DNA of 24,961 bases from a virus: the UHGV virus genome UHGV-0275691. The stretch is one strand, 5' to 3'. Below, in pieces: positions 2,047-23,221 of this stretch (its first letter is position 1; every line of letters starts with the position of its first letter). The notes beneath the pieces were generated by a model. The model saw only the letters and a list, made by a program, of their open reading frames with translations. It ran no database searches and was not told the origin of the DNA. The position numbers and the translations under genes were made by a program.

Positions 2047-3072
2047 TTACGCCAGTTGAACGGACACGAACTCATCAGGATCAGCCAGCAGCATCAGCGG
2101 TGCTGACTGAATCATGGTGAACTCTCGCGCCGGATCGCCGGTGGTCACCCAGTTTTTCGGGTAACGGGCAGAGGCGTTAATGCCTTCGCGCTGTGCGTCC
2201 GCATCCTGAATGCAGCCATAGGTGCGCAGACCGCGTGCCTGAGTGTTCCCCAGCACCATCGTGTTGTCCGGCAGGAAGTTCTTTTTGACGCCGTTTTCCA
2301 CGTACTGTCCGGAATACACGACGATGGCCACATCGCCATACATCCCCTTATAGGACACCGCTTTACCCAGGTCTTTCACCGCTGTCTCCAGCTCGGAATG
2401 AGAGCCACGACGGGTATCCAGCTTCTCCTTGACGGCTTTGAAGGAACGGAACAGCGCCCAGCCTTTCGGATCAAACACGATGATATTCACCACTCCGCTG
2501 GCGTTCAGCGCGTAGGCTTCGATATCGTCGGTCGGGTCATACGTGGACTTGTCACGCTTGCTCCACTCCGTGCCGCCGGACTGTGTGATGTTGTTCGCCG
2601 CACTGCGGCCCATATCCACTTCAACCGGATCGAAGGCTTCACCGGTCATGGTGTATTTGCCCTTGAGCACGGCAGAAACGGCCTGCATCTCTTCGACCTG
2701 AGCAATGGCCAGCTCTTCGTCACGCATGTTCTGCATGATGATGCGACGGCGGCGGTAAGCCGGGTCAGCCAGATTCTGCGGATCTTCATCCGGCAGGCGA
2801 CGCAGGGTCATCTGCGGATTCACTTCATGCTTCGGCTTGACATATCCCGGCGTAAATTCAGAGGTGGAGCCGCCACGGGAACGGATAACCTCACCGGAAA
2901 CAATTGGCGAAACGTACAGCGCCATGTTTACCAGTCCAGGAATTTGTGAGAGATAGACTTTCTCCGTGGTGAAGGGATAGCTCTCACGGAAAAAGAGACG
3001 CAGAAACAGCGGATCAAACTTAAATTTCTGCTCATTTGCCGCCAGCAGCTGGGCGGTTGTGTACATCGACAT
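2047..3072 (-). CDS. E: Major capsid protein E (341 aa)
   Basis: Matches lambda E from MSMYTTAQLL; ORF-track start is 9 codons upstream of the lambda-equivalent start. Confidence 0.95.
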   Translation of the reverse strand: MSMYTTAQLLAANEQKFKFDPLFLRLFFRESYPFTTEKVYLSQIPGLVNMALYVSPIVSGEVIRSRGGSTSEFTPGYVKPKHEVNPQMTLRRLPDEDPQNLADPAYRRRRIIMQNMRDEELAIAQVEEMQAVSAVLKGKYTMTGEAFDPVEVDMGRSAANNITQSGGTEWSKRDKSTYDPTDDIEAYALNASGVVNIIVFDPKGWALFRSFKAVKEKLDTRRGSHSELETAVKDLGKAVSYKGMYGDVAIVVYSGQYVENGVKKNFLPDNTMVLGNTQARGLRTYGCIQDADAQREGINASARYPKNWVTTGDPAREFTMIQSAPLMLLADPDEFVSVQLA

Positions 3073-3127
3073 AAAAAAATCCCGTAAAAAAAGCCGCACA
3101 GGCGGCCTTTAGTGATGAAGGGTCAGG

Positions 3128-3460
3128 TTAAACGATGCTGATTGCCGTTCCGGCAAACGCGGTCCGTTTTTTCGTCTCGTCGCTGGCAGCCTCCGGCCAG
3201 AGCACATCCTCATAACGGAACGTGCCGGACTTGTAGAACGTCAGTGTGGTGCTGGTCTGGTCAGCAGCAACTGCAAGAATGCCAACGGCAGCACCGTCGG
3301 TGGTGCCATCCCACGCAACCAGCTTACGGGTGGAGGTGTCCAGCATCAGCGGGGTCATTGCAGGCGCTTTCGCACTCAACCCGCCGGGCGCGGTTGCGGT
3401 ATGAGCCGGGTCACTGTTGCCCAGCGGCTGGTAATGGGTAAAGGTTTCTTTGCTCGTCAT
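3128..3460 (-). CDS. D: Capsid decoration protein D (110 aa)
   Basis: Matches lambda D from [10 protein letters not shown]. Confidence 0.95.
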
Positions 3461-3469
3461 AAACATCCC

Positions 3470-3865
3470 TTACACTGGTGTGTTCAGCAAATCGTTAACG
3501 GCATCAGATGCCGGGTTACCTGCAGCCAGCGGTGCCGGTGCCCCCTGCATCAGACGATCCAGCGCAGTGTCACTGCGCGCCTGTGCACTCTGTGGTGCTG
3601 CGGCCAGAATACGGCGGGCCGTTTCCACGGTCATACCGGGGGTTTCGGCCAGCACGCATGCCTGTTCTTCGCGTCCGTGAGCCTCCTCACAGTTGAGGAT
3701 CCCCATAATGCGACTGTTTTCTGCCGCAACCGCTGCGGTGATCTGCGCGTTCACGTCCGGCTGCGCAGCGCTGGCGTTCTCGCCCTCCGTCGCTTGCACC
3801 ACGCCAGTAACGTCAGCCTGCGAAGCAGTGGCTGAAACAGTTGTTGATTGAGTCTCTTTGGTCAT
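3470..3865 (-). CDS. Nu3: Capsid scaffolding protein Nu3 (131 aa, in-frame C-terminal part of C)
   Basis: Internal ATG at 3863-3865 preceded by AGGAGGG; C-terminal C reading frame matches lambda; lies downstream of the C frameshift so it is intact. Confidence 0.7.
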   Translation of the reverse strand: MTKETQSTTVSATASQADVTGVVQATEGENASAAQPDVNAQITAAVAAENSRIMGILNCEEAHGREEQACVLAETPGMTVETARRILAAAPQSAQARSDTALDRLMQGAPAPLAAGNPASDAVNDLLNTPV

Positions 3866-10783: not shown

Positions 10784-11272
10784 TTAATAGCCATCAGAAG
10801 TAATCGCTACAGATTTCAATCCCTCAATGTCATCCTTGGACAGGGCGAACCATTCACCGTGCTTTCTCTTTGCGGCAAATTTGCGATGAAGCATGTTTTC
10901 AGTTTCTCTTCCACCAGGGATCAGGCACTCAAGCTTCAAGCAGTCTGGTCCAGAGTTGCCAAGCGATTTGATGCGTTGTGGAATGTTGGATGAATACCCA
11001 ATTTTGGTTAGCCCAGTTTTCTTCGATGACAAAACGTATACCTGAGGAGGTTCTTTTCTCTGGTCTTCCATTACACGTCTCATTGTTGCCATAAGTCCGC
11101 CGTGCATCAGCATTTCAACAAAGAACGCTGACCGAACACCTGACGACTTAAGCATGCCAGAAAATTCACTTGCCAATTCCATTAACTCTGCGATGTTTTC
11201 AGGAACTTTTTGGCAGTTATCTTCCTTGTATAAGGAAATCATTCTTTGAAGCTTTTCTTCTAATTGGTTCAT
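10784..11272 (-). CDS. T5orf172 (GIY-YIG-like) domain protein with an uncharacterised helical N-terminal domain, 162 aa
   Basis: C-terminal region VYVLSS..GLTKIGYSSNIPQRIKSL...ENMLHRKFAAKRKHGEWFAL fits the T5orf172/GIY-YIG-like motif order (YxL, KIGxS, R, E, GEWF); ATG at 11270-11272; the track start at 11308 is a GTG. Confidence 0.65.
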   Translation of the reverse strand: MNQLEEKLQRMISLYKEDNCQKVPENIAELMELASEFSGMLKSSGVRSAFFVEMLMHGGLMATMRRVMEDQRKEPPQVYVLSSKKTGLTKIGYSSNIPQRIKSLGNSGPDCLKLECLIPGGRETENMLHRKFAAKRKHGEWFALSKDDIEGLKSVAITSDGY

Positions 11273-11421
11273 AGCGTCTTTACCTTTTAGAAAGTGAGCC
11301 TGTCTCACAGAAAAGCCGCCCCGAGATGGTCGCCACCATATACGGCAGTTCTCAGGCTCAACTTTCTGAAAGGCTCGGGTGATGTAATATGCGCGTGAGA
11401 TGCGCTGTGAAATTCAGATGT

Positions 11422-12466: not shown

Positions 12467-12571
12467 GGATATTTATCAGGATTTATCGGTTTCTGAACCC
12501 TGGATATGTTTATCTGTCCCGGCCTGTTGAATCAGGCAAGGAATAGTTAAATACAATAGAGAGGATTGTTT

Positions 12572-12844
12572 ATGGACAATAGCACCATTTCTCTACAGGA
12601 GTTGCTCGACTGCATTTCCAGGCTTCGGGATGATGTAAATGCCCTTACTGTCGCATTTTCATATCTGGCATTCTCAATTCCCAAGGAACAAATGCAACCA
12701 ACACTGGCATCGCTCCAGCTTGAATCACTCAACCCCAAATGGTCCCAGCAACAACAAAATTCTTTCAAGTGGCTGGCGGTATTACTGGAAGAAAAATATG
12801 CTGGTGAAATTACCATTTCGGCGGAGTCTTCAGAGAACCAGTAA
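12572..12844 (+). CDS. Hypothetical acidic 90-aa protein encoded antisense to the lysis operon, between the YdfR-like gene and R
   Basis: ATG at 12572 with GAGAGGA Shine-Dalgarno 6 nt upstream; candidate sigma70 promoter TTGAAT-N15-TAAATA upstream; no similarity I can recognise. Confidence 0.45.
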   Translation: MDNSTISLQELLDCISRLRDDVNALTVAFSYLAFSIPKEQMQPTLASLQLESLNPKWSQQQQNSFKWLAVLLEEKYAGEITISAESSENQ

Positions 12845-13158: not shown

Positions 13159-13374
13159 TTACTCTCCCCGTGCAGCCTTACGCTTGTCTTCTTTAATCTT
13201 GAAATAAAGGTTTGTCAGGTACGTCAGCAGGCCAAATACCAGGCTACCCAGCACTCCAATTGCCGCCCACTGTGAGGGCGTGACTTTATCTAGCAGCTGT
13301 AAAAACCAGTACCCGGCACTACCTGCTGAGGTGCCATAGGCGACACCCGTTGTTAACTTATCCATGGATTGCAT
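13159..13374 (-). CDS. S: Holin S, phage 21 pinholin type (71 aa) with dual-start motif M-Q-S-M
   Basis: Near-identical to recalled S21/EssD-type holins; GAGGTGGGG RBS; Met1 and Met4 give the holin/antiholin dual start. Confidence 0.93.
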
Positions 13375-13486
13375 AACCCCACCTCGCAGACAAAGCGGGT
13401 GTAAATTGAGGGAATACTACGAAACGTAACAGACTCGGAGTCAGTGAATAACTCAGGTATTGGGTTATCAGCTAATATCGAGACTC

Positions 13487-13519
13487 AAAAAATGGAAAAA
13501 CCCGCTCGACGGCGGGTTT
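13487..13519 (-). terminator. Rho-independent terminator on the minus strand, about 115 nt upstream of S (AAACCCGC-loop-GCGGGUUU then UUUUUCCAUUUUUU)
   Basis: 8-bp GC-rich stem with 6-nt loop followed by a long U tract on the late-operon strand; candidate tR'-like terminator. Confidence 0.65.
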
Positions 13520-13947
13520 AAGCTGTGTGACGAAGTAACCACTCTTAACAGCATAACCAATTTTTTACGTACGTAAACCACTAAATGATATTTGCGAGAA
13601 TGCTACCGAGTATTGAAAACACCACTACAAATACATAAGCAAATCTCAACAAATAACCAACAAATAATTTCCAGCGTTATTTTTAGCCAATTTAAATTGA
13701 ACCTTCAAATTATAGAGCACTTATAAATAACAGCCATTAATATAAATTGGCTAATAGATTTATTTTTATTCAGCCAAGAGCCATGAATAGGATTCGATAG
13801 AAAAAAGTTCAGATAAAAATAGAGATCTACTTCACAAATTAAACGAGAAACCAAAACTTACATCTTGAAATAATCACATTGATTAGATGAATATTTATCG
13901 CGCAGTGACATCATTTTTTAATAATAGTTCAAAAAAAAGGGCTCACG

Positions 13948-15030
13948 ATGAAAAAATTAACAGTGGCAATTTCTGCTGTAGCTGCATCAGTACTGATGGC
14001 GATGTCTGCTCAGGCAGCTGAAATTTATAATAAAGACAGTAACAAGCTGGATCTGTACGGGAAAGTTAATGCTAAGCACTACTTCTCCTCTAATGATGCA
14101 GATGATGGTGATACTACTTATGCCCGTCTTGGCTTCAAAGGTGAAACCCAAATCAACGATCAACTGACTGGTTTCGGTCAGTGGGAATATGAATTCAAAG
14201 GCAACCGCGCTGAATCTCAAGGTTCTTCCAAAGACAAAACCCGTCTTGCATTTGCAGGCCTGAAATTTGGTGATTACGGCTCAATCGATTACGGCCGTAA
14301 CTACGGTGTAGCATACGACATCGGTGCGTGGACTGACGTCCTGCCAGAATTCGGTGGTGATACCTGGACCCAAACAGATGTGTTCATGACTGGTCGCACT
14401 ACTGGTGTTGCAACTTATCGTAACAACGACTTCTTTGGTCTGGTCGATGGCCTGAACTTTGCTGCTCAGTATCAGGGTAAAAATGACCGCACTGACGTAA
14501 CTGAAGCCAATGGTGATGGTTTCGGTTTCTCCACTACTTATGAGTATGAAGGATTCGGCGTGGGTGCAACCTATGCTAAATCAGATCGCACTGACGGTCA
14601 GGTCGCCTATGGTAAGAGCAAATTCAATGCCTCCGGCAAAAATGCGGAAGTATGGGCTGCAGGCCTGAAATATGATGCGAACAATATCTATCTGGCTACC
14701 ACATATTCTGAAACTCAGAATATGACCGTTTTTGGTAATAACCATATTGCAAACAAAGCACAAAACTTTGAAGCAGTAGCACAATATCAGTTTGACTTCG
14801 GTCTGCGCCCATCTGTTGCTTACCTTCAGTCAAAAGGTAAAGACCTTGGTGTTCATGGTGACCGAGACTTAGTCAAGTATGTCGATGTCGGTGCTACTTA
14901 CTACTTTAATAAAAACATGTCCACTTTTGTTGATTACAAAATCAACTTAATTGACGATAGTAAGTTTACCAAAACAGCTGGTATTGATACTGATGACATC
15001 GTTGCTGTAGGTCTGGTTTACCAGTTCTAA
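13948..15030 (+). CDS. nmpC: Phage-encoded OmpC/OmpF-family general porin (NmpC/Lc-like), 360 aa
   Basis: Signal peptide ending AQA/AE, conserved porin N-terminus ([17 protein letters not shown]) and C-terminal YQF; located between Q and S on the strand opposite the late genes, as for nmpC in DLP12 and lc in PA-2. Confidence 0.93.
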
Positions 15031-15167
15031 TCTGATTACGAAAAAGATATGTTGCGGGAGGCGTTGCCTCCCCAACATATAAGTGGCTCCCTCAAGCCAC
15101 TTCCTTTAGAAGCACAACCTTGCTTCTAACTATATAAACCTTCTGTTATATATTACCCTTTATTTTT

Positions 15168-15192
15168 GGGGGCGTCTCAACGCCCCATTTTT
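15168..15192 (+). terminator. Rho-independent terminator downstream of the porin gene (GGGGGCG-loop-CGCCCC then TTTTT)
   Basis: GC-rich hairpin followed by T tract on the plus strand; two further hairpins at about 15053-15072 and 15081-15102. Confidence 0.65.
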
Positions 15193-15219
15193 AATAATTT
15201 TTAGTAAACAATTGGCATA

Positions 15220-15603
15220 TTAATTAGAGTTATTAACAACGATATCCATCTCTAACCGGATATCTAATGCCATTAACATCCCTTCAATTATGCCCTCAGC
15301 CTTTTGTAACCTTTTCCCGATATAACCATCAGAGCAGCAATGCTTACCTGCCAGTGACATGAATGTCATACCGACTACATAATAATCTACTAATAAATCG
15401 TGCAAATCGCTGTTGTTCTTTTTCAGACGGGCCATGCACCCGCAAATGATCATCGCGTCATCGTCACAACATTGCGGGCGAGATTTTACTTTTGAAGGAA
15501 TTAATCCCTTAAAACCGGCGGCAATGGACGACCAGGTCACATCTTCATGATTATTAGCCGCCCACGCTCCCCAACGCTCAAGAACCATCTGAATATCACG
15601 CAT
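15220..15603 (-). CDS. Q: Late-gene antiterminator Q, DLP12 QuuD type (127 aa)
   Basis: Translation from [12 protein letters not shown] matches recalled QuuD; ATG at 15601-15603 with GGAG RBS; the track start is an upstream TTG. Confidence 0.85.
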
Positions 15604-20521: not shown

Positions 20522-21172
20522 ATGAATACACAACTGATGGGTGAGCGTATTCGCGCTCGCAGAAAAGAACTTAAGATTAGGCAGGCTGCCCTTGGCAAGA
20601 TGGTTGGCGTGTCTAATGTTGCTATTTCCCAATGGGAGCGTTCTGAAACTGAGCCCAATGGCGAAAACCTATTGGCTTTAGCCAAGGCTTTACAGTGCTC
20701 CCCTGATTACTTGTTGAAAGGAGAAGATAGTCTTTCAAACATTGCCTATCACAGCAGGCATGATCCAAGAGGTTCGTATCCTCTAATTAGTTGGGTAAGC
20801 GCAGGATGTTGGATGGAAGCTGTAGAGCCATATCATAAGCGTGCAATAGATAACTGGTACGATACAACCGTAGATTGTTCAGAAGATTCGTTTTGGCTGG
20901 ACGTAAAGGGTGATTCGATGACGGCTCCAGCCGGTCTTAGCATCCCGGAAGGGATGATAATACTAGTCGATCCTGAAGTAGAACCTCGTAATGGGAAGCT
21001 GGTAGTGGCAAAGCTCGAAGGAGAAAACGAGGCAACTTTCAAGAAGTTAGTTATTGATGCTGGCAGAAGGTTTCTAAAACCACTTAACCCACAATATCCG
21101 ATGATTGAGATCAACGGGAACTGCAAAATCATCGGTGTAGTTGTCGATGCAAAAATAGCAAACCTTCCATAA
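20522..21172 (+). CDS. c2: Prophage repressor, P22 C2 type (216 aa), LexA-like autocleaving C-terminal domain
   Basis: Near-identical to recalled P22 C2 repressor over the full length. Confidence 0.95.
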   Translation: MNTQLMGERIRARRKELKIRQAALGKMVGVSNVAISQWERSETEPNGENLLALAKALQCSPDYLLKGEDSLSNIAYHSRHDPRGSYPLISWVSAGCWMEAVEPYHKRAIDNWYDTTVDCSEDSFWLDVKGDSMTAPAGLSIPEGMIILVDPEVEPRNGKLVVAKLEGENEATFKKLVIDAGRRFLKPLNPQYPMIEINGNCKIIGVVVDAKIANLP

Positions 21173-22984: not shown

Positions 22985-23056
22985 GCGCGGCGTTACCGCA
23001 TACCAATAACGCTTCACTCGAGGCGTTTTTCGTTATGTATAAATAAGGAGCACACC

Positions 23057-23221
23057 ATGCAATATGCCATTGCAGGGTGGCCTGTTGCTGGCTGCCCTTC
23101 CGAATCTTTACTTGAACGAATCACCCGTAAATTACGTGACGGATGGAAACGCCTTATCGACATACTTAATCAGCCAGGAGTCCCAAAAAATGGATCAAAC
23201 ACTTATGGCTATCCAGACTAA
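23057..23221 (+). CDS. cIII: CIII (FtsH inhibitor that stabilises CII), 54 aa
   Basis: Manual translation [54 protein letters not shown] matches lambda CIII; AAGGAG RBS; below the ORF-track cutoff. Confidence 0.92.
   Translation: MQYAIAGWPVAGCPSESLLERITRKLRDGWKRLIDILNQPGVPKNGSNTYGYPD

What the first reader, a model, noticed from the sequence alone, without database searches (positions are those of the whole stretch)
13375..15219. Porin conversion gene between Q and S, and uncertain placement of the late promoter
A complete OmpC-family porin gene with its own AT-rich promoter region and a strong terminator sits on the opposite strand between Q and S. Late transcripts from a Q-proximal pR' would have to run antisense through about 1.1 kb of porin gene. 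The only textbook terminator on the late strand is at 13487-13519, about 115 nt upstream of S, not next to Q. So either pR'/qut is just downstream of Q and this is a distal tR'-like site, or the late promoter lies in the AT-rich 13520-13947 interval. I could not assign pR' confidently.
Basis: partly seen in the sequence, partly recalled or inferred. Interest (0 to 1): 0.45.

Follow-up and report, generated by a model that had tools for sequence, protein, structure and literature searches.

The report
Prophage porin gene splitting Q from late promoter
This is the well-known Lc/NmpC-type porin gene of lambda-like prophages; it sits between the Q antiterminator gene and Q's own late promoter, so late transcripts most likely start just upstream of the holin gene and never cross the porin gene.

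Summary
An intact OmpC-family porin gene (13948-15030, + strand) lies between Q (15603-15220, -) and the S21-type holin (13374-13159, -). A hairpin plus U-tract lies at 13519-13487 on the late strand.

Window 13580->13487 (- strand) is homologous to the late promoter cassette of Stx phages 933W, H-19B and Sakai Sp5, whose Q proteins are 78-82% identical to this one. In those phages the cassette overlaps the Q stop codon, and the start site was mapped by dRNA-seq.

Here the cassette reads: -35 TTTACG (13577-13572), -10 TATGCT (13555-13550), predicted start near 13543, terminator 13519-13487. It matches the geometry annotated for phage 21. Its core is invariant in seven independent porin-carrying phages, while the surrounding AT-rich DNA varies. 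So the porin module separates Q from pR' by about 1.65 kb.

- Q belongs to the Q21 family, not Q82.
- A second late-strand terminator follows Q (15080-15041).

The module occurs in 2389 of 5426 complete E. coli genomes and in PA-2 and DLP12. It is ordinary and already known.

Open point: a published RpoE-dependent DLP12 promoter appears to lie about 355 nt further upstream.

The parts
15220..15603 (-). Q antiterminator gene (QuuD type, 127 aa from MRDIQ)
   Evidence: PF06530 Phage_antitermQ, E=5e-53. Distant match to solved Q21 (6p18/6jnx), E=7.6e-8. 78% identical to Q of 933W over 125 aa; the tails differ after RLEMD.
15041..15080 (-). Late-strand hairpin (15080-15047) followed by CUUUUU (to 15041). 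Candidate intrinsic terminator for transcripts leaving Q, ending 11 nt before the porin stop codon.
   Evidence: RNA fold of 15100-15030: -32.4 kcal/mol, z = -5.4, 0 of 200 shuffles as stable. The T-run exists only on the - strand. On the + strand a K-12 Term-seq 3' end maps to 15083, at the foot of the same hairpin.
15169..15192 (+). Porin-strand intrinsic terminator (GGGGCGT-CTCA-ACGCCCC then AUUUUU)
   Evidence: Terminator scan and fold. The K-12 Term-seq 3' end at MG1655 574367(-) maps to window 15192, and the reported 61-nt flanking sequence is identical.
13948..15030 (+). Intact OmpC-family porin gene (Lc/NmpC type), 360 aa with a signal peptide
   Evidence: 91% identical to PA-2 Lc. Present in 36 phage records, all of which also hold this Q-proximal junction DNA.
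13749..13947 (+). Porin promoter and 5' leader region (AT-rich). The exact start site is not assigned.
   Evidence: In K-12, deleting -199 to -1 relative to the nmpC start codon removes PnmpC activity (PMC11677980). GC is 26-31%. 13937-13878 is invariant in 7 phages.
13904..13930 (-). SigmaE-like motif GAACTA-N16-TCACT on the late strand. This is the probable position of the published RpoE-dependent 'essDp' of DLP12.
   Evidence: Inferred. PMC7918800 describes an amplicon '-121 to +650' made with primer Pdlp12Fw, which matches window 14020-14001. That places +1 near 13899. The sigmaE consensus is from my own knowledge. The motif is invariant in 7 phages.
13550..13577 (-). Late promoter pR': -35 TTTACG (13577-13572), 16-nt spacer holding the invariant CGTAAAAA (13569-13562), -10 TATGCT (13555-13550)
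   Evidence: Homologous to the annotated pR' of 933W (TTTACG-16-TATCAT). Only 8 of 12 consensus matches, so the consensus scan alone does not single it out.
13521..13547 (-). Predicted start site (about A13543; range 13545-13542) and conserved initial transcribed region TAAGAGTGGTTACTTCGTCACACAGC. This is the presumed pause and Q-loading region.
   Evidence: Start site transferred from the Sakai Stx-phage dRNA-seq/Term-seq result, where PR' lies 258 nt from tR' (PMC7547250; sequence). There are no variable columns in 13570-13521 among 7 phages. TAAGAGTGGTTAC is exact in 11 loci.
13487..13519 (-). Promoter-proximal terminator (tR'-like): stem AAACCCGC/GCGGGTTT, then UUUUUCCAUUUUUU, ending about +50 to +57
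   Evidence: Homologous to the first terminator annotated in 933W. The Morganella phage has a different stem sequence at the same place that still pairs. Same position as the phage 21 terminator, TSS+2 to +49.
13159..13374 (-). S21-type holin/antiholin gene, the first late gene
   Evidence: PF04971, E=2e-35. Annotated essD or holin in related records.

Best explanation
The region is the Q-porin-S module of PA-2/DLP12-type lambdoid prophages. The porin gene is a self-contained moron. It has its own AT-rich promoter region and its own terminator, and it lies on the strand opposite to the phage genes. It is lodged between the Q gene and Q's cognate late-promoter cassette, not inside the late transcript.

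The late promoter pR' is the compact cassette at 13577-13487 on the - strand. It consists of a sigma70-type -35 and -10, a start near 13543, a conserved initial transcribed region where RNA polymerase is expected to pause and receive Q, and a hairpin plus U-tract that stops unmodified polymerase after about 50-57 nt.

Q is made from the early rightward transcript 1.65 kb away and acts in trans at this cassette. Q-modified polymerase reads through the hairpin into S, ydfR, R and Rz. Transcripts leaving Q are stopped by a separate late-strand terminator at 15080-15041. The porin mRNA, coming from the other direction, ends at 15192, so the two convergent units are insulated from each other.

Shown: the gene identities, the homology and conservation of the cassette, and the 3' ends of porin-strand RNA in K-12. 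Inferred: the start site, the pausing, the Q binding, and the terminator efficiency in this particular phage.
For: 1. Homology to a mapped promoter. Window 13580-13487 aligns with the 933W/H-19B segment annotated as pR', qut and terminator, with identical -35, TAAGAGTGGTTAC and hairpin stems. In Sakai Stx phages with the same 144-aa Q type, dRNA-seq placed the PR' start directly downstream of Q, 258 nt from tR' (PMC7547250). That start corresponds to window 13545-13542.

2. Cognate pairing. 416 phage records encode a relative of this Q and 363 hold the cassette. In the Stx phages and in a Morganella phage (Q 66% identical) the cassette overlaps the Q stop codon. The window holds exactly one copy, next to S.

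3. Constraint. Among seven independent porin-carrying phages, 13570-13521 has 0 variable columns and 13520-13471 has 1. The AT-rich DNA at 13820-13571 has 7-18 variable columns per 50 nt, and the porin gene has up to 23.

4. Geometry. The cassette matches the annotated phage 21 cassette: -35, QBE in the spacer, -10, start site, pause element, and a terminator finished by +50. This Q is a Q21-family protein.

5. The split is recurrent. PhiR55_1 and vB_EcoS-569R4 carry other reverse-strand genes immediately upstream of the same cassette; in PhiR55_1 the insert lies between Q and the cassette.

6. No cassette-like sequence lies next to Q. The Q-porin spacer instead holds terminators of both polarities.
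Against: 1. There is no transcript mapping for this phage. K-12 Term-seq lists no late-strand 3' end at the DLP12 equivalent of 13519-13487. An RNA of about 50 nt may simply have been lost from those libraries.

2. The promoter matches consensus in only 8 of 12 positions. The pause element is weak here (TACTTC, against TACATT in 933W). No 8-bp direct repeat like the phage 21 QBE is visible.

3. In 4 of 7 related phages the hairpin's 3' arm reads GCTGG, and RNAfold no longer predicts the hairpin. In Sakai phages the mapped transcript runs past the homologous hairpin to +258. Its efficiency as the only barrier before S is therefore unproven.

4. Published work on DLP12 attributes lysis-cassette transcription to an RpoE-dependent promoter. 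That promoter appears to lie about 355 nt upstream of this cassette.
Confidence: 0.84

Rival explanations
1. pR' and qut lie immediately downstream of Q (15219-15031), as in the textbook cassette. Q-modified polymerase runs antisense through the porin gene, and the 13519-13487 hairpin is a distal terminator.
For: This is the canonical arrangement in lambda, phage 21, 933W and H-19B (PMC9388147). The relaxed scan finds 8-9 of 12 promoter-like matches in the spacer, for example TTGAGA-19-TAATAT at 15180-15150.
Against: No homolog of the family's cassette lies there. The spacer is occupied by hairpins that act as 3' ends, including one of late-strand polarity at 15080-15041. It has 3-7 variable columns per 50 nt, against 0-1 in the S-proximal cassette. 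Promoter-like matches of this quality are expected by chance in AT-rich DNA.
Confidence: 0.04
2. The working promoter of the lysis genes is the RpoE (sigmaE)-dependent 'essDp' described for DLP12. It lies near 13930-13899, back to back with the porin start. Q acts on transcripts from that promoter, and the 933W-like cassette is only a relic or a terminator.
For: PMC7918800 cites Rueggeberg 2013 and 2015 for control of the DLP12 lysis operon by Q and by RpoE, and uses an amplicon '-121 to +650'. Its forward primer matches window 14020-14001, which puts +1 near 13899. A sigmaE-like GAACTA-N16-TCACT sits at that spot, in DNA that is invariant in 7 phages.
Against: I could not read the primary papers, so the position is my inference. 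That invariant DNA is also the porin's 5' region, which explains its conservation. The amplicon contains both candidate promoters, so the reporter data do not discriminate. Genomic SELEX lists no RpoE site there, only an RpoS holoenzyme site near the porin start. Q21-family loading needs sigma70 bound at a promoter-proximal pause element. Porin-less relatives have no such upstream motif, yet keep the cassette. The two promoters are not mutually exclusive.
Confidence: 0.08
3. The late-promoter cassette next to S is an inactive remnant in a defective prophage, and nothing in this window drives late genes.
For: No transcript data exist for this window. K-12 Term-seq shows no late-strand 3' end at the equivalent site.
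Against: Phage isolates propagated on E. coli hosts (PhiR and ev series, Chlobot, Turner, PA-2, 434B) carry a cassette that is identical apart from one hairpin polymorphism. The genes from Q through S, ydfR, R and Rz are intact here. The cassette is the most conserved noncoding stretch of the module.
Confidence: 0.03

Closest known systems
lc porin locus of phage PA-2 (GenBank J02580; Blasband, Marcotte and Schnaitman 1986) and nmpC of the DLP12/qsr' cryptic prophage of E. coli K-12
   Same: Same gene order and orientation: Q, reversed porin, AT-rich spacer, lysis genes. The 227 nt of the Q-porin junction held in the PA-2 record are 100% identical, and the junction is 99.7% identical to DLP12 as carried by 434B. 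The pR' cassette is 97-100% identical. The porin is 91% identical to Lc.
   Different: The porin is intact here, whereas IS5 interrupts nmpC after codon 346 in K-12. The porin differs from Lc in a few clustered segments with indels. The hairpin is the GCGGG variant and lacks the 16-nt insertion seen in PA-2.
Late regulatory cassette of Stx phages 933W, H-19B and Sakai Sp5 (Q, pR', qut, terminators; source of the StxS sRNA)
   Same: Q is 78-82% identical. The promoter, initial transcribed region and first terminator are homologous. The promoter start was mapped experimentally in Sakai.
   Different: In the Stx phages the cassette overlaps the Q stop codon, and Q has an 18-24 aa longer tail encoded by the -35 region. 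Here the cassette is 1.65 kb from Q. The second terminator at +258 and the StxS region are absent here, and S follows after about 113 nt instead of tRNA and stx genes.
Phage 21 Q21/PR'21 cassette (Guo et al. 1991; Yin, Kaelber and Ebright 2019)
   Same: Same Q family (PF06530). Same layout: -35, spacer element, -10, start site, promoter-proximal pause region, and a terminator finished by about +50. Same S21-type holin downstream.
   Different: Q is only distantly similar to Q21: 30% identity to the window Q in the full-length alignment, with a phmmer match over about 80 residues. There is no ATTGAGCA/AATGAGCA direct repeat here. The promoter DNA is not alignable with that of phage 21. In phage 21 the promoter starts 7 nt after the Q stop.
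Phage 82 Q82/PR'82
   Same: Only the general logic of Q antitermination.
   Different: Q82 belongs to a different protein family (PF06323). The Pfam scan of this Q reported only PF06530.

Membership tests
Q21-family Q-dependent late regulatory cassette | Q protein of Pfam PF06530 | tested here: met
   E=5e-53, 178 bits against a 26-bit cutoff. phmmer hit to solved Q21, E=7.6e-8. PF06530 is equated with the Q21 family in PMC9388147.
Q21-family Q-dependent late regulatory cassette | PR' transcription unit directly adjacent to the Q gene | tested here: not met
   The only cassette copy is at 13580-13487, 1.65 kb from the Q stop at 15220, with the porin gene in between. In phage 21, 933W and the Morganella phage it starts 0-7 nt from, or overlaps, the Q stop.
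Q21-family Q-dependent late regulatory cassette | Intrinsic terminator shortly downstream of the start site | tested here: met
   Hairpin 13519-13498 plus U-tract to 13487, about +25 to +57 from the predicted start. The phage 21 terminator is annotated from TSS+2 to +49.
Q21-family Q-dependent late regulatory cassette | QBE: two 8-bp direct-repeat subsites between -35 and -10 | tested here: inconclusive
   No direct repeat in the spacer TACGTAAAAAATTGGT. Only CG(T/C)AAAAA is kept across 14 loci. Binding was not tested.
Q21-family Q-dependent late regulatory cassette | Sigma70-dependent pause element (-10-like) in the initial transcribed region | tested here: inconclusive
   The conserved TGGTTACTTC (13541-13532) matches TATAAT poorly. 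933W has TACATT at the same place, annotated as qut. Pausing is not testable here.
Q21-family Q-dependent late regulatory cassette | Q-dependent read-through of the terminator | not testable with these tools
   Needs in vitro transcription or reporter assays.
Lc/NmpC lambdoid-phage porin (lysogenic conversion gene) | Full-length general porin of the OmpC/OmpF/PhoE family with a signal peptide | tested here: met
   PF00267 covering profile positions 1-337, E=1.9e-151. NCBIfam porin OmpC, 521 bits against a 484-bit cutoff. Residues 24-360 align end to end with solved OmpC chains.
Lc/NmpC lambdoid-phage porin (lysogenic conversion gene) | Located between Q and the lysis genes of a lambdoid prophage, on the opposite strand, close in sequence to lc/nmpC | tested here: met
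Lc/NmpC lambdoid-phage porin (lysogenic conversion gene) | Expressed in the lysogen and changes outer-membrane phenotype (receptor loss, permeability) | not testable with these tools
   Only indirect evidence. The K-12 nmpC promoter is active (PMC11677980), and porin-strand 3' ends are detected in K-12.
Q82 family | Q protein of Pfam PF06323 | tested here: not met
   The Pfam scan reported only PF06530. Family definitions are from PMC9388147.
Moron (independently transcribed insert in a prophage) | Own promoter and terminator, composition unlike the flanks, absent from otherwise related genomes | tested here: met
   GC 26-31% upstream of the porin, against 45-52% in the flanks. Terminator with mapped 3' ends in K-12. 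Related Q modules lack the porin or carry other inserts.

The most novel reading that the evidence does not exclude
In PA-2/DLP12-type modules the lysis genes may sit behind two stacked promoters. The first is a sigmaE-type promoter beside the porin start (about 13930-13899). The second is the canonical sigma70 pR' cassette, 355 nt downstream. Under this reading, envelope-stress transcripts have to pass the Q-loading site and its terminator, so lysis-gene expression in lysogens would be gated jointly by envelope stress and Q.

More generally, the slot between Q and pR' would be a recurrent landing site for reverse-oriented morons in Q21-family phages. This would mean the 'Q gene plus adjacent PR'' cassette does not have to be contiguous.
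Probability: 0.15. Interest if true: 0.45.

Novelty: already known. Interest (0 to 1): 0.2.

Why it matters
It matters mainly for correct annotation. In thousands of E. coli prophages of this type, the late promoter should be placed just upstream of the holin gene, not next to Q. The porin should be read as a unit that is transcriptionally insulated from late transcription.

Three practical consequences follow:
- It removes a supposed antisense conflict between late transcripts and the porin gene.
- It identifies which roughly 90-bp element to use or delete when engineering or testing Q control in these phages.
- It flags that published work on the DLP12 lysis cassette used fragments containing two candidate promoters.

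The porin itself is a known lysogenic-conversion function. The differences between this copy and PA-2 Lc fall in a few clustered segments, which may be relevant to phage and colicin susceptibility.

Tried and rejected
1. Phage 82. I first assumed QuuD was Q82-like and looked for the 82 pause signature. A TAATATGCC at the Q stop codon looked tempting. I dropped this because Q is PF06530 (Q21 family) and nothing else supports that site.

2. Consensus promoter scans. They cannot decide. The strict scan misses the homologous pR' (8 of 12 matches), and the relaxed scan gives many equal hits in AT-rich DNA.

3. Literature searches. Full-text searches for the promoter sequence itself found nothing relevant. 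The Rueggeberg 2013 and 2015 and Toba 2011 papers are not held. Supplements with 82 PR' templates, Sakai start sites and the Conway operon tables are not held. The id I tried for the Thomason start-site paper is not held.

4. K-12 Term-seq (PMC7815308). It gave porin-strand 3' ends but no late-strand 3' end at the DLP12 cassette.

5. Rfam. Nothing in 13300-15300 except a sub-threshold Trp-leader hit on the terminator.

6. Lambda_ev087. Its Q is 89% identical to this one by tblastn, but the tail differs and it lacks the cassette. It seems to use a different downstream unit with a 933W-tR'-like terminator. It is not informative here.
Full report
**Orientation and gene content.**
The window is a lambda-like prophage read backwards, so the rightward early and late genes are on the - strand. 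Read along the late strand (descending coordinates), the order is:

| Feature | Coordinates | Strand |
|---|---|---|
| CI-like repressor | 20522-21172 | + |
| NinB, Dam, NinX, RusA, YlcG | between the repressor and Q | - |
| Q | 15603-15220 | - |
| Porin | 13948-15030 | + |
| S21-type holin | 13374-13159 | - |
| YdfR/DUF1327 | 13154-12810 | - |
| Lysozyme | 12466-11933 | - |
| Rz | 11951-11478 | - |

These calls rest.

The porin ORF is intact. It scores E=1.9e-151 against Pfam Porin_1 over the whole profile. It passes the NCBIfam 'porin OmpC' cutoff. Residues 24-360 align end to end with solved OmpC, OmpK36 and OmpF chains. GC falls to 26-31% between 13600 and 13999.

**How common it is.**
The 2.6-kb stretch from Q to S is 100% identical to a stretch of the E. 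coli ET210 chromosome. At least 80% of it is present in 2389 of 5426 complete E. coli genomes and in 36 phage records.
- The Q-porin junction is 100% identical, over the 227 nt that the record holds, to the 1986 PA-2 lc record J02580.
- It is 99.7% identical to the DLP12 segment carried by phage 434B, where IS5 interrupts the porin.
- The porin protein is 91% identical to Lc.
- In the phage collection, 36 records hold the porin and 36 hold this Q-proximal junction, and the two lists coincide.

This is therefore the classical Lc/NmpC conversion locus.

**Which Q family.**
The Pfam scan of Q reported only PF06530. Q also has a weak but significant match to the solved Q21 protein (E=7.6e-8). PMC9388147 equates PF06530 with the Q21 family and PF06323 with the Q82 family. 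Phage 82 is therefore the wrong comparator. Q is 78-82% identical to the Q proteins of the Stx phages 933W and H-19B.

**Where the late promoter is.**
In 933W the record annotates pR' (TTTACG-16-TATCAT), a qut site and a terminator. All three begin inside the last codons of Q. The window has no such sequence next to Q.

It does have one at 13580-13487 on the - strand, directly upstream of S. The shared elements are TTTACG, a spacer with CGTAAAAA, TATGCT, TAAGAGTGGTTAC and AAACCCGCCG...GCGGGTTTTT.

In Sakai Stx phages with the same Q type, dRNA-seq and Term-seq placed the PR' start 258 nt upstream of the tR' 3' end, directly downstream of Q (PMC7547250). On the 933W sequence this falls 5-8 nt after TATCAT. 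That position corresponds to window 13545-13542, most likely A13543.

The geometry also matches the fully annotated phage 21 cassette: -35, QBE in the spacer, -10, start site, pause element, and a terminator finished by +50.

**Specificity and constraint.**
416 phage records encode a relative of this Q, and 363 contain the cassette. In the Stx phages, and in a Morganella phage whose Q is only 66% identical by tblastn, the cassette overlaps the Q stop codon. There the TAA of the invariant CGTAAAAA is the stop itself, and the Q tail ...LRS is encoded by the -35 region.

In the porin-carrying phages Q ends early (...[12 protein letters not shown]). Homology to the Stx arrangement resumes exactly at the -35 hexamer.

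Among seven independent porin-carrying phages the conservation is:

| Interval | Variable columns |
|---|---|
| 13570-13521 (cassette core) | 0 per 50 nt |
| 13520-13471 | 1 per 50 nt |
| 13820-13571 (AT-rich DNA) | 7-18 per 50 nt |
| Q-porin spacer | 3-7 per 50 nt |
| Porin gene | up to 23 per 50 nt |

Two further phages show that the Q/pR' junction is a recurrent insertion slot. PhiR55_1 carries a different reverse-strand gene between Q and the cassette. In vB_EcoS-569R4 the cassette is preceded by two reverse-strand genes.

**Mechanism proposed.**
Q is made from the early rightward transcript. Transcripts leaving Q meet a late-strand hairpin at 15080-15047 followed by CUUUUU. The fold energy with the adjacent small hairpin is -32.4 kcal/mol, with z = -5.4.

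The porin mRNA comes from the other side and passes the same hairpin. It ends at the second hairpin, 15169-15186 plus U-tract. In K-12, where the flanking sequences reported with the 3' ends are identical to the window, Term-seq maps porin-strand 3' ends that correspond to window 15083 and 15192. A Rho-dependent region lies just inside the antisense of Q.

pR' at 13577-13550 is expected to fire constitutively, pause in the conserved initial transcribed region, and terminate at 13519-13487. That would give an RNA of about 50-57 nt. Q binding there would let polymerase read into S and the rest of the late operon. Late transcripts therefore need not cross the porin gene.

Only N-antiterminated early transcription would run antisense through the porin. 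This last point is an inference from lambda biology and is not tested here.

**Weak points.**
- There is no transcript mapping for this phage.
- K-12 Term-seq lists no late-strand 3' end at the DLP12 cassette. Short RNAs may have been lost from those libraries.
- The promoter is a modest consensus match (8 of 12).
- I cannot point to a QBE or to a convincing -10-like pause element.
- Four of the seven related phages carry GCTGG instead of GCGGG in the hairpin's 3' arm, and the predicted hairpin disappears. The same four carry a 16-nt insertion further downstream.
- In Sakai phages the mapped transcript extends beyond the homologous hairpin to +258. The strength of this terminator is therefore unknown.

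**A rival from the literature.**
PMC7918800 cites Rueggeberg et al. 2013 and 2015 for control of the DLP12 lysis operon by Q and by RpoE. It cloned a region '-121 to +650'. Its forward primer matches window 14020-14001, which places +1 near 13899.

A sigmaE-like GAACTA-N16-TCACT lies at that spot, at 13930-13904, in a second invariant island. The sigmaE consensus is from my own knowledge. That island is also the porin's 5' region, which would explain its conservation. The cloned fragment contains both candidate promoters, so the reporter data cannot separate them. Genomic SELEX lists no RpoE site there.

I could not read the primary papers. I treat this as a possible additional promoter rather than as the Q-dependent late promoter.

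**Verdict.**

The only non-textbook aspect is that the Q gene and its PR' unit are not contiguous. That layout is shared by PA-2, DLP12 and thousands of E. coli prophages. It is ordinary, already known biology of low interest.

Noticed in passing
window 13498-13503 and about 13422; loci L002, L009, L010, L012: The pR'-proximal hairpin is polymorphic. PA-2, ev207, ev099 and Turner read GCTGG in the 3' arm, and RNAfold no longer predicts the hairpin. The same four carry a 16-nt insertion, CTGCTTTTTTGCGATA, about 70 nt downstream. The window, DLP12, Chlobot and PhiR70_1 have GCGGG; the window, Chlobot and PhiR70_1 are seen to lack the insertion in the alignment, and DLP12 by matching spacing to S.
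   Followed up: partly
window 13366-13374 (- strand): The holin starts MQSM here (codon 2 is CAA). Six related phages have MKSM. This removes the lysine of the three-residue N-terminal extension that distinguishes the S21-71 antiholin from the S21-68 holin. From my knowledge of S21, this might alter lysis timing.
   Followed up: no
window 13948-15030: The porin gene is the most variable part of the module among phages (88-97% DNA identity, up to 23 variable columns per 50 nt). Its differences from PA-2 Lc cluster in a few segments with indels: residues about 181-190, 215-232, 262-268, 302-306 and 335-347. I suspect these are surface loops under diversifying selection, but I did not map them onto a structure.
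   Followed up: partly
window 15083, 15192 and about 15228 (+ strand): Published K-12 Term-seq (PMC7815308) has strong porin-strand RNA 3' ends at positions equivalent to 15083 and 15192. It also has a Rho-termination region just inside the antisense of Q. These are present even though nmpC is interrupted by IS5 in K-12.
   Followed up: yes
loci L008 (PhiR55_1, 1990-2436), L016 (vB_EcoS-569R4, 1-1070), L005 (Lambda_ev087, 3032-3556): Other phages with related Q genes carry different reverse-strand genes in this area: an unnamed 148-aa ORF directly after Q in PhiR55_1, a Blc lipocalin after Q in Lambda_ev087, and two unnamed ORFs just upstream of the cassette in vB_EcoS-569R4. The region downstream of Q looks like a recurrent slot for opposite-strand morons.
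   Followed up: partly
window 12467-12809: A gap of about 340 nt with no convincing gene lies between the YdfR/DUF1327 gene and the lysozyme gene. Only overlapping unsupported ORFs are listed there.
   Followed up: no
window 10784-11308 (- strand): An ORF with T5orf172/MUG113 domains lies directly downstream of Rz/Rz1. It is probably another accessory gene at the end of the lysis cassette.
   Followed up: no
window 23044-23102 (+ strand): A full-length match to the lambda cIII thermoregulator RNA element (RF01804, 88.5 bits). It confirms a lambda-like leftward early operon on the + strand.
   Followed up: no
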